A stretch of 44,771 nucleotides of DNA. Source: a virus. Position numbers and translations under genes: made by a program. Every line of letters begins with the position of its first letter. Position 1 is the first letter of the stretch. The notes beneath the pieces are model-generated. The model had not been told where the DNA came from, searched no databases, and was given only the letters and a program-made list of their open reading frames with translations. Below, in pieces: positions 30,705 to 31,121 of this stretch. The DNA lies in the UHGV virus genome UHGV-0180729; one strand, written 5' to 3'.

Positions 30705-31121
30705 ATGAAACTTTCTGATTTTTATTTCGCCGATAAGCACGCAGAAGGCAGCCGTATGCCTATTCTACTGCCGAGTGGTGAAGACTCCGGCGAATGGCTG
30801 CAGGTGATGGGGCCGGATTGCGACGTCGCGGTTCGCGCCGGGCGAGCCTTTGTATCGGCTAACTTCGCGTTGAAAGAGCAACTCGAAGAGTTGGACGCGA
30901 AATGCAAGGCAAAGAACGACTGGACTGAGTACAACGCAAAGTATAACTGGATGGCGGAAGACCTAAACCGGCAGCTGGCGGTTGAAGTTGTGACAGGCTG
31001 GTCCTTTGACGACGCGTTCTCTAAAGAGGCCCTGGCGGCACTGCTAGGTCAGTACCGAGGGCTTGCGGAAGAAGTGGTTAAATACCACACTAAGCTCCGT
31101 GAAGAATTATCGGTAAAGTAG
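30705..31121 (+). CDS. Tail assembly chaperone (gpG-like)
   Basis: 138-aa acidic protein directly upstream of the tape measure gene. Confidence 0.55.
   Translation: MKLSDFYFADKHAEGSRMPILLPSGEDSGEWLQVMGPDCDVAVRAGRAFVSANFALKEQLEELDAKCKAKNDWTEYNAKYNWMAEDLNRQLAVEVVTGWSFDDAFSKEALAALLGQYRGLAEEVVKYHTKLREELSVK

What the first reader, a model, noticed from the sequence alone, without database searches (positions are those of the whole stretch)
31103..31121. Tail chaperone pair likely uses a -1 frameshift at a non-canonical site next to the stop codon
The second chaperone ORF is in the -1 frame, open only from 31103, and lacks a credible ribosome binding site or ATG. The 19-nt overlap contains no canonical X-XXY-YYZ heptamer; the only candidate is A-AAG immediately before the UAG stop (tRNA-Lys slippage AAG to AAA). 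If correct, this is a minimal frameshift signal.
Basis: inference. Interest (0 to 1): 0.35.

Follow-up and report, generated by a model that had tools for sequence, protein, structure and literature searches.

The report
Tail chaperone frameshift at A-AAG-stop
The two tail-assembly chaperone reading frames of this Kagunavirus-like phage are almost certainly joined by a backward one-base ribosome slip on the four bases A-AAG directly before the stop codon, a known minimal type of slip site that is conserved in hundreds of related phages but mostly left unannotated.

Summary
The G-like chaperone ORF is 30705-31121. The T-like frame is -1, opens only at 31103, and has no credible start or ribosome binding site. 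No X_XXY_YYZ heptamer lies in the overlap.

In 29 non-redundant relatives (down to 32% amino-acid identity) the G ORF ends NNA_AAG. A stop follows directly: UAG 19, UAA 9, never UGA. One variant has UUA_UAG instead. The base before AAG is always A, across six different penultimate codons. In some relatives the -1 frame opens only 10 nt before the end of the stop, leaving A_AAG as the only possible site. Three relatives carry canonical A_AAA_AAG at the same place. Wobble-position variability switches from frame 0 to frame -1 at this point.

Synonymous conservation peaks here and includes an unexplained invariant hexamer, GCGCUG, 5 nt downstream. I found no conserved upstream SD-like element or downstream RNA structure.

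A_AAG tetramers and NNA_AAG hexamers are documented bacterial -1 motifs. At least three GenBank relatives already annotate the joined product. This is therefore a new member of a known kind. No experiment supports it yet. The stop-stimulated P-site mechanism is inferred.

The parts
30705..31121 (+). G-like tail assembly chaperone ORF (138 aa), the frame-0 product that ends at UAG
   Evidence: Pfam PF08748 Phage_TAC_4; PHROG 15027 positions 1-137. It is always 138 codons in the Guernseyvirinae-level relatives examined.
30693..30697 (+). Shine-Dalgarno-like AAGGA for the G ORF
   Evidence: anti-SD duplex -5.4 kcal/mol, spacing about 6 nt from ATG 30705.
31100..31102 (+). TGA that closes the -1 frame upstream; the shift must occur 3' of it
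31113..31118 (+). GUA_AAG hexamer. The slip tetramer A_AAG is 31115-31118: tRNA-Lys leaves AAG (31116-31118) and re-pairs with AAA (31115-31117)
   Evidence: A_AAG is invariant in 29 of 29 representatives. The penultimate codon is always NNA (GAA 16, GCA 7, GTA 2, AAA 2, TCA 1, CAA 1). The PHROG junction falls at this Lys.
31119..31121 (+). UAG stop of G, directly 3' of the slip codon; proposed stimulator (slow RF1-dependent termination)
   Evidence: the next codon is UAG 19, UAA 9, UUA(+UAG) 1 and never UGA. The fourth base is A 13, C 13, U 3, G 0.
31124..31129 (+). GCGCUG hexamer (Ala-Leu in the -1 frame), conserved at nucleotide level; role unknown
   Evidence: GCGCTG in 26 of 29 representatives; these are the two most codon-invariant of 32 conserved degenerate amino-acid columns, apart from the Val that overlaps the stop. 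No conserved pairing partner was found.
31115..31483 (+). T-like -1 frame segment (122 codons plus TGA), translated only as the C-terminal part of a 259-aa G-T fusion
   Evidence: Pfam PF23812 Phage_TAC_18; PHROG 15027 positions 138-259; wobble periodicity switches to this frame at the slip site.
31124..31211 (+). Possible long-range stem in this phage only (31124-31130 with 31205-31211, 31141-31151 with 31194-31204, 31153-31160 with 31177-31184), starting 5 nt after A_AAG
   Evidence: MFE -31.9 kcal/mol, z = -3.4. It is not conserved in relatives, so this is weak evidence.
31476..33665 (+). Tape measure protein gene; its ATG overlaps the T stop (ATGGCTGA)
   Evidence: PHROG 1538, E 4e-109.
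27403..28575 (+). Tail tube protein gene, the presumed binding partner of the T domain
   Evidence: Pfam PF18906 Phage_tube_2, E 2e-34.

Best explanation
This is the G/GT tail-assembly chaperone pair of a Kagunavirus-like siphophage. Most ribosomes translate 30705-31118 and terminate at UAG 31119-31121, giving the 138-aa G protein. A minority shift -1 on A_AAG (31115-31118): peptidyl-tRNA-Lys un-pairs from AAG and re-pairs with the overlapping AAA. The next codon is then read as GUA (Val), and translation continues in the -1 frame to TGA 31481-31483. The product is a 259-aa fusion with the junction ...REELSV-K-VDALLKYF....

[quoted passage not shown] This is a 'shifty stop', and the conserved GCGCUG 5 nt downstream may help it. 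By analogy with lambda gpG/gpGT, the G parts coat the tape measure protein and the rare T domain recruits the tail tube protein.

Shown here: the frame arrangement, the lack of a start, the family assignments, and the conservation of the site and frame switch. Inferred: that slippage occurs at all, P-site timing, the role of the stop and the hexamer, the efficiency, and the protein interactions.
For: - Frame and ORF anatomy, with no heptamer.
- Pfam TAC_4 followed by TAC_18 and then the tape measure gene; the fused PHROG 15027 profile has its junction at the AAA Lys.
- tblastn of the fused protein finds 490 phage records covering at least 80% of it, each listed hit in two pieces spanning 773-779 nt, which is the -1 arrangement.
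- NNA_AAG plus UAG/UAA is kept in 29 of 29 representatives. The third-position A is kept through six different penultimate codons.
- The overlap shrinks to the 10 nt C_GCA_AAG_UAA in four loci.
- A_AAA_AAG sits at the same place in L046, L047 and Shewanella phage 3/49.
- 53 of 55 distinct sequences have no ATG, GTG or TTG in the -1 frame up to the conserved Leu. The first canonical start is usually 29-35 codons into the conserved T sequence.
- The most variable codon phase switches from frame 0 to frame -1 at the site.
- The synonymous-conservation peak is 0.92 against a mean of 0.47; 3 of 2000 column shuffles reach it.
- An exhaustive search of 1.84 billion representative proteins finds only short T-only calls (58-124 aa), mostly truncated at the internal ATG, and no in-frame fusion.
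- Joined CDSs are annotated in Serratia phage Smarc3, Pantoea phage AH01 and Shewanella phage 3/49.
- In the literature, A_AA.G is the most efficient Z_ZZN tetramer in E. coli (PMC4066793). NNA_AAG is used by IS1222 and occurs in B. subtilis cdd; E. coli has a single tRNA-Lys that pairs better with AAA (PMC5009743).
Against: - There is no experimental evidence for the fusion protein in any family member that I could find. The phage Eta proteome paper does not mention these proteins, as expected for non-virion chaperones.
- An A_AAG tetramer without a stimulator gave only about 0.15% frameshifting in E. coli reporters, barely above background (PMC4066793). I found no conserved SD-like element, no conserved downstream structure and no Rfam match. 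A lambda-like yield therefore depends on the untested stimulatory role of the stop and the hexamer.
- The invariant CUG (UUG in Jerseyvirus) 6 nt after the stop could in principle serve low-level re-initiation.
- One lineage (L022) has a sense codon UUA between AAG and the stop, so direct adjacency is not absolute.
Confidence: 0.85

Rival explanations
1. Termination and re-initiation. Ribosomes finish G at UAG and a fraction restart at the conserved CUG 31127 (UUG in some relatives; UUG 31130 in this phage). This would give a free T protein of about 118 aa that acts in trans, with no fusion.
For: - CTG is kept in 26 of 29 representatives and is TTG in 2.
- Several GenBank records annotate ORF2 from this CTG or TTG.
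- Nucleotide-level conservation of GCGCUG is otherwise unexplained.
Against: - It does not explain the invariant A before AAG across six penultimate codons, the invariant AAG itself, or the conserved GCG before the CUG.
- It does not explain the canonical A_AAA_AAG in three relatives.
- There is no SD in range.
- CUG is a very poor bacterial initiator (my own knowledge).
- In the lambda paradigm T works only when fused to G (PMC5009743).
Confidence: 0.07
2. Independent canonical initiation of ORF2 at TTG 31130 or ATG 31220, as gene callers assume, with G and T made as separate proteins.
For: the ORF listing and public gene calls start at TTG 31130 (117 aa, P0037) or at the internal ATG (87-88 aa).
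Against: - TTG 31130 is TAT, TGT or TAC in other lineages.
- There is no SD.
- A start at ATG 31220 would drop 35 residues that are highly conserved and show coding periodicity in the -1 frame.
- 53 of 55 sequences have no canonical start before the conserved region.
Confidence: 0.04
3. Transcriptional slippage. RNA polymerase adds an A in the A run, giving an mRNA in which G and T are in frame.
For: The site is an A run. L046, L047 and Shewanella phage 3/49 have six A's.
Against: Most family members, including the window, have only three or four A's. That is far below the roughly 7-9 needed for appreciable polymerase slippage (my own knowledge of IS elements and Thermus dnaX). It would also not explain selection for the adjacent stop.
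Confidence: 0.02
4. The shift is at A_AAG, but while AAG is in the A site or during translocation. It would be driven by a lineage-specific downstream stem whose 5' arm is GCGCUG (5-nt spacer), with the stop codon incidental.
For: - The 5-nt spacer matches the IS3 reporter geometry, ZZZN + 5 nt + pseudoknot, that gave up to 5.6% (PMC4066793).
- In the window, GCGCUGU pairs in a stable long-range structure (z = -3.4).
- The hexamer is predicted to be paired in most relatives, with mean total pairing probability per base 0.67-0.95.
Against: - The partners differ between lineages and show no covariation. The RNAalifold consensus is -1.2 kcal/mol, and most per-sequence z-scores are not significant.
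- It does not explain why the stop is always adjacent and never UGA.
Confidence: 0.2

Closest known systems
Phage lambda gpG/gpGT and the conserved tail-chaperone frameshift of long-tailed phages (Levin 1993 and Xu 2004, as summarised in PMC5009743)
   Same: Two overlapping ORFs lie just upstream of the tape measure gene. The second is in the -1 frame and has no start. The slip uses tRNA-Lys AAG>AAA near the end of G. A low-level fusion product is expected.
   Different: Lambda uses the tandem heptamer G_GGA_AAG, several codons before the stop. Here only the second half (A_AAG) is slippery, and it abuts the stop codon. There is no detectable sequence similarity to lambda G/T (different Pfam TAC families). 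The tail tube gene is separated from the chaperones by four reverse-strand ORFs.
Z_ZZN tetramer and NNA_AAG hexamer -1 motifs: IS1222 (G_CGA_AAG), B. subtilis cdd (A_CGA_AAG), IS1/IS3 tetramer users (PMC4066793, PMC5009743)
   Same: Single-tRNA slippage of tRNA-Lys on A_AAG. The preceding codon ends in A and is otherwise free. Intrinsic efficiency is low, so a stimulator is needed.
   Different: The described cases use a pseudoknot, a stem-loop or an upstream SD as stimulator. Here neither is conserved, and the conserved neighbours are a UAG/UAA stop and a GCGCUG hexamer.
Shifty-stop frameshifting (prfB CUU_UGA, antizyme UCC_UGA; Weiss 1987, cited in PMC5009743)
   Same: The slip-prone P-site codon lies directly 5' of a slowly decoded stop codon. 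There is a bias toward weak termination signals.
   Different: The classic programmed cases are +1. They use UGA and, in prfB, an SD 3 nt upstream, and they are autoregulatory. Here the shift is -1 and the stop is UAG or UAA only. No regulatory loop is known.
E. coli dnaX A_AAA_AAG
   Same: The same tRNA-Lys chemistry. Three relatives (L046, L047, Shewanella phage 3/49) carry exactly A_AAA_AAG at the homologous position.
   Different: dnaX has an upstream SD and a downstream stem-loop and shifts about 50% of ribosomes. The window has only the tetramer.
Annotated joined chaperone CDSs in Pantoea phage AH01 (MZ501269), Serratia phage Smarc3 (MT980832) and Shewanella phage 3/49 (NC_025466)
   Same: Homologous G-T pairs with the same -1 arrangement, already deposited as ribosomal-slippage joins.
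   Different: These are annotation only. The great majority of the roughly 500 related records give two separate genes, with ORF2 starting at CTG, TTG or an internal ATG. The Shashou genome announcement states that there is no canonical slippery sequence (PMC6776780).

Membership tests
G/GT tail assembly chaperone frameshift system | Two overlapping ORFs directly upstream of the tape measure gene, downstream of the major tail (tube) gene | tested here: met
   ORFs 30705-31121 and 31103-31483; tape measure gene at 31476; tube protein at 27403-28575. Caveat: four reverse-strand ORFs (28604-30523) lie between the tube and chaperone genes.
G/GT tail assembly chaperone frameshift system | The second ORF is out of frame and lacks its own start and RBS | tested here: met
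   It is in the -1 frame. There is no SD for TTG 31130 or CTG 31127. 53 of 55 relatives have no ATG, GTG or TTG before the conserved T region.
G/GT tail assembly chaperone frameshift system | A slip-prone sequence in the overlap that is conserved in relatives | tested here: met
   NNA_AAG in 29 of 29 representatives. The synonymous-conservation peak falls here.
G/GT tail assembly chaperone frameshift system | Sequence membership in tail assembly chaperone families | tested here: met
   PF08748 at 29.6 bits (cut-off 21.1); PF23812 at 58.4 bits (cut-off 27); PHROG 15027 at E 5e-56 and 2e-43.
G/GT tail assembly chaperone frameshift system | G-like fold comparable to solved chaperone structures | tested here: inconclusive
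G/GT tail assembly chaperone frameshift system | Both G and GT are made at a fixed ratio; GT is required; G binds the tape measure and T binds the tube protein | not testable with these tools
   This needs expression, genetics and binding assays.
Canonical X_XXY_YYZ tandem-slippage heptamer | An in-frame heptamer that lets both P- and A-site tRNAs re-pair | tested here: not met
   There is none in the overlap or anywhere in ORF1. G_GUA_AAG leaves GUA>GGU mismatched. It is met only in L046, L047 and L077 (A_AAA_AAG).
Z_ZZN tetramer / NNA_AAG hexamer -1 motif | A_AAG in frame 0 with cognate AAA in frame -1, inside the open part of the -1 frame | tested here: met
   Position 31115-31118.
Z_ZZN tetramer / NNA_AAG hexamer -1 motif | The host decodes AAA and AAG with a single tRNA-Lys (mnm5s2UUU) | not tested
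   This is established for E. coli (PMC5009743). The host is inferred to be E. coli from about 90% nucleotide identity to K1-type Kagunaviruses.
Z_ZZN tetramer / NNA_AAG hexamer -1 motif | A flanking stimulator (downstream structure or upstream SD) raises efficiency above background | tested here: inconclusive
   There is no conserved SD, no conserved structure and no Rfam hit. The window alone has a stable stem. The conserved stop and the GCGCUG hexamer are candidate stimulators.
Shifty-stop (stop-stimulated P-site slippage) | The slip codon lies immediately 5' of a stop codon, and this is conserved | tested here: met
   28 of 29 representatives. The exception has UUA_UAG.
Shifty-stop (stop-stimulated P-site slippage) | Slow or weak termination at that stop demonstrably drives the shift | not testable with these tools
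   There is only suggestive bias: UAG 19, UAA 9, UGA 0, and fourth base A/C in 26 of 29. Long ORFs in the window use TAA 20, TGA 17, TAG 9.

The most novel reading that the evidence does not exclude
The conserved 15-nt cassette A_AAG_UAR_NNG_CGC_UG is a compact -1 frameshift signal that needs no RNA structure. A tetramer slip site would be driven by an RF1-read stop in a weak context together with a sequence-specific downstream hexamer, acting on the ribosome or on termination rather than through a fixed RNA helix. This would make the G:GT ratio responsive to RF1 availability in the infected cell.
Probability: 0.15. Interest if true: 0.55.

Novelty: new member of a known kind. Interest (0 to 1): 0.33.

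Why it matters
- **Annotation.** About 500 sequenced Guernseyvirinae-type phages, many of them therapy or biocontrol candidates for E. coli, Salmonella, Serratia and Klebsiella, carry this site. Most records split the chaperone into two genes, with a CTG/TTG start or a truncated 87-aa ORF. One genome announcement concluded that there was no slippery sequence. The comparative rule NNA_AAG_UAR gives a simple and precise way to annotate the 259-aa fusion.
- **Recoding research.** This is a natural, deeply conserved case in which a bare A_AAG tetramer sits against a stop codon, with no conserved SD or structure. It is a convenient system for asking how much a stop codon and its 3' context can stimulate -1 slippage, as opposed to the well-studied +1.
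- **Limits.** It does not change the picture of how phage tails are assembled.

Tried and rejected
- **Upstream SD-like stimulator, as in dnaX or cdd.** Anti-SD duplex energies in the 30 nt upstream are weak and variable (+0.3 to -5.8 kcal/mol) and sit at inconsistent distances. Rejected as a conserved element.
- **Conserved downstream stem-loop or pseudoknot.** The RNAalifold consensus is only -1.2 kcal/mol. The window's own stable fold projected onto 15 relatives shows no covariation beyond shuffles. Pairing partners of GCGCUG differ by lineage. Most per-sequence z-scores are not significant.
- **Rfam scan of 30900-31500.** No match at E up to 1.
- **Natural in-frame G-T fusions as direct proof of the fused form.** Three protein searches were run: with the fused query (G-only hits), with T alone (3 hits), and an exhaustive search of 1.84 billion representatives (20 short T-only calls). 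None showed a fusion. The absence is uninformative, because gene callers cannot join frames.
- **Phage Eta proteome paper.** It does not mention these proteins.
- **Transcriptional slippage and stop-codon readthrough.** Considered and rejected: the A run is too short, and T is not in frame 0.

Full report
**What is in the window**

Over most of 20000-44771 the window is about 90% identical in nucleotides to K1-type Kagunaviruses (K1G, K1ind, vB_VIPECOTH07). The region of the finding is the start of a rightward tail operon.
- The G-like ORF is 30705-31121 (138 aa).
- The -1 frame is open from 31103 to 31483.
- The 729-aa tape measure gene starts at 31476.
- ORF1 hits Pfam Phage_TAC_4, and the -1 frame hits Phage_TAC_18.
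- The 390-aa ORF at 27403-28575 is the tail tube protein (Phage_tube_2). It is separated from the chaperones by four reverse-strand ORFs.

**Checking the observation**

Frame 0 reads ...GAA GAA TTA TCG GTA AAG TAG. The -1 frame reads TGA(31100) AGA ATT ATC GGT AAA GTA GAC GCG CTG TTG....

TTG 31130, CTG 31127 and ATG 31220 have no usable Shine-Dalgarno. Their anti-SD duplexes are -2 to -3 kcal/mol at spacings of 10-13 nt. The real G and tape-measure starts have -5.4 and -6.4 kcal/mol at 6-8 nt. Among 64 ORFs of at least 100 aa in the window, only this one ends A_AAG+stop.

**Evidence that the two frames are read as one protein**

PHROG 15027 is a 259-position 'tail assembly chaperone' profile. 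ORF1 residues 1-137 align to positions 1-137. The -1 frame aligns from its fifth residue, the Lys encoded by AAA 31115-31117, to positions 138-259.

tblastn with that fused sequence finds 505 phage records. In 490 of them one place covers at least 80% of the query, and every listed full-length hit is in two pieces spanning 773-779 nt, which is a -1 arrangement. Three records already annotate a joined CDS: Serratia phage Smarc3, Pantoea phage AH01 and Shewanella phage 3/49. Most others give two genes, with the second starting at CTG or TTG six bases after the stop.

**Locating the shift by comparison**

I collected about 75 loci from GenBank phages, IMG/VR and metagenome assemblies. At 90% identity or less over 88 nt they reduce to 29 representatives, whose amino-acid identity to the window goes down to 32%.
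- All 29 keep A_AAG.
- The codon before AAG is GAA (16), GCA (7), GTA (2), AAA (2), TCA (1) or CAA (1). These are six different codons, and every one has A in the third position.
- The codon after AAG is UAG (19) or UAA (9), and never UGA. The base that follows the stop is A (13), C (13) or U (3), and never G.
- One lineage (L022/L023) has A_AAG_UUA_UAG, so the stop is displaced by one infrequently used Leu codon.
- In L007, L008, L030 and L036 the -1 frame opens only 10 nt before the end of the stop (C_GCA_AAG_UAA). That leaves A_AAG as the only conceivable site.
- L046, L047 and Shewanella phage 3/49 have the canonical A_AAA_AAG, again followed directly by UAG.
- 53 of 55 distinct sequences have no ATG, GTG or TTG in the -1 frame up to the conserved Ala-Leu. 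The first canonical start usually lies 29-35 codons inside a strongly conserved T segment, KVxALYEFAxWxFVDxQKKQKFDSI....
- The position of greatest variability switches from the frame-0 wobble phase to the -1 wobble phase exactly at the site.

**Nucleotide-level constraint**

I built a codon alignment of 17 fused sequences that share 55-68% nucleotide identity between lineages. Identity of synonymous codons averages 0.47. It peaks at 0.92 over fused codons 136-142, and only 3 of 2000 column shuffles reach that value.

The invariant stretch is A AAG UA. After two free bases comes GCGCUG.

Of 32 near-invariant four- or six-fold degenerate amino-acid columns, the three with the highest codon invariance are all here:
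- Val-139 GTA, which is forced by the overlapping stop;
- Ala-141 GCG, 17 of 17;
- Leu-142 CTG, 16 of 17.

Every other column scores 0.25-0.76. The hexamer is GCGCTG in 26 representatives, GCGTTG in 2 and GCCCTG in 1.

**Search for stimulators**

- No conserved SD-like element lies upstream.
- RNAalifold finds essentially no consensus structure (-1.2 kcal/mol).
- The window's own sequence folds into a stable long-range stem that begins at GCGCUGU, 5 nt after the slip site (-31.9 kcal/mol, z = -3.4).
- Projected onto relatives, that structure shows no covariation beyond shuffles. The predicted partners of the hexamer differ from lineage to lineage, and most per-sequence z-scores are unremarkable.
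- Rfam has no match.

The only stimulator candidates that are conserved are therefore the adjacent stop and the hexamer.

**Mechanism**

Two statements come from the literature.
- The minimal -1 site is a Z_ZZN tetramer. In E. coli the ranking is A_AA.G >> U_UU.C > .... Tetramers alone gave about 0.15% against a 0.11% background, and up to 5.6% with the IS3 pseudoknot placed 5 nt downstream. IS1/IS3-family elements use tetramers in 87 cases against 403 heptamers (PMC4066793).
- NNA_AAG is used productively by IS1222 and incidentally in B. subtilis cdd. E. coli's single tRNA-Lys pairs more strongly with AAA than with AAG (PMC5009743).

My inference is that tRNA-Lys slips from AAG to AAA while a slowly read stop occupies the A site. 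Val-tRNA then reads GUA and commits the ribosome to the T frame. Three observations fit selection for slow termination: the conserved adjacency of the stop, the exclusive use of RF1-readable stops, and the bias toward A or C as the fourth base. That A and C are weak termination contexts in E. coli is recalled from memory, not tested here. These are correlations on related sequences, not proof.

An alternative keeps the same slip but places it in the A site or during translocation. Lineage-specific stems whose 5' arm is GCGCUG would drive it. This cannot be excluded, and I give it about 0.2.

Re-initiation at the conserved CUG would explain part of the hexamer conservation. It would not explain the invariant NNA_AAG or the A_AAA_AAG variants.

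**Function of the products**

This is inferred by analogy with lambda (PMC5009743). Many copies of G would coat the tape measure protein, and the rare G-T fusion would recruit the tube protein. Neither is expected in virions. Nothing here tests these interactions.

**Novelty**

The G/GT frameshift, the A_AAG tetramer and shifty stops are each known, and a few database records already join these ORFs. The site has nevertheless been missed or dismissed. The Shashou genome announcement says the ORF between chaperone and tape measure has 'no canonical slippery sequence' (PMC6776780). PRFect's list of backward motifs does not include a tetramer (PMC10885494). In a 1.84-billion-protein representative library the T frame appears only as short fragments, mostly starting at the internal ATG.

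I rate this as a new member of a known kind, of modest interest. The unexplained GCGCUG conservation and the UAG/UAA-only rule are the parts most worth an experiment.

Noticed in passing
window 31124-31129 (and the homologous position in L001-L079): The hexamer GCGCUG, 5 nt after the slip site, is conserved at synonymous positions far more than any other Ala or Leu codon in the two genes. No conserved pairing partner was found, and its role is unknown.
   Followed up: partly
window 30850-31600 compared with the flanks: Mosaicism. Most of 20000-44771 is about 90% identical in nucleotides to K1-type Kagunaviruses. The chaperone pair is only about 60% identical in amino acids to theirs, and megablast similarity stops at about 30850. 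The nearest relatives of this module are two IMG/VR contigs (L005, L006; 98-99%). The conserved slip cassette lies inside the exchanged segment.
   Followed up: partly
window 28604-30523, - strand: Four reverse-strand ORFs interrupt the tail module between the tube gene and the chaperones. They include a 376-aa protein with a weak calcineurin-like phosphoesterase match (29061-30191). The same layout appears in relatives.
   Followed up: no
window 33719-34549, - strand: A 276-aa reverse-strand ORF with a sub-threshold AP2 domain match lies between the tape measure gene and the minor tail genes. It may be a homing-endonuclease-type insertion.
   Followed up: no
L022/L023 1926-1935: A variant of the cassette has the stop displaced by one codon (A_AAG_UUA_UAG). 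The G protein ends ...AKL instead of ...AK, while the spacing to GCGCUG is unchanged.
   Followed up: partly
L046/L047, and L077 (Shewanella phage 3/49) around 735-744: Relatives carry the canonical A_AAA_AAG at the homologous position, still directly followed by UAG. This shows that the family moves between tetramer and heptamer versions of the site.
   Followed up: yes
public protein sets (P0037-P0058): Gene callers almost always truncate the T frame to 87-88 aa from an internal ATG (window 31220), or start it at TTG or CTG. As a result the conserved first 35 residues of the T domain are missing from most database entries.
   Followed up: yes
window 31133-31106, - strand: A promoter-like match (TCAACA-16-GATAAT, 9 of 12) overlaps the slip site on the opposite strand. 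The number of such matches in the region is within what shuffles give.
   Followed up: no
window 31476-33665: The tape measure protein has a weak, sub-threshold SHOCT-like motif at residues 513-536. A homologue in L026 shows the same faint hit.
   Followed up: no
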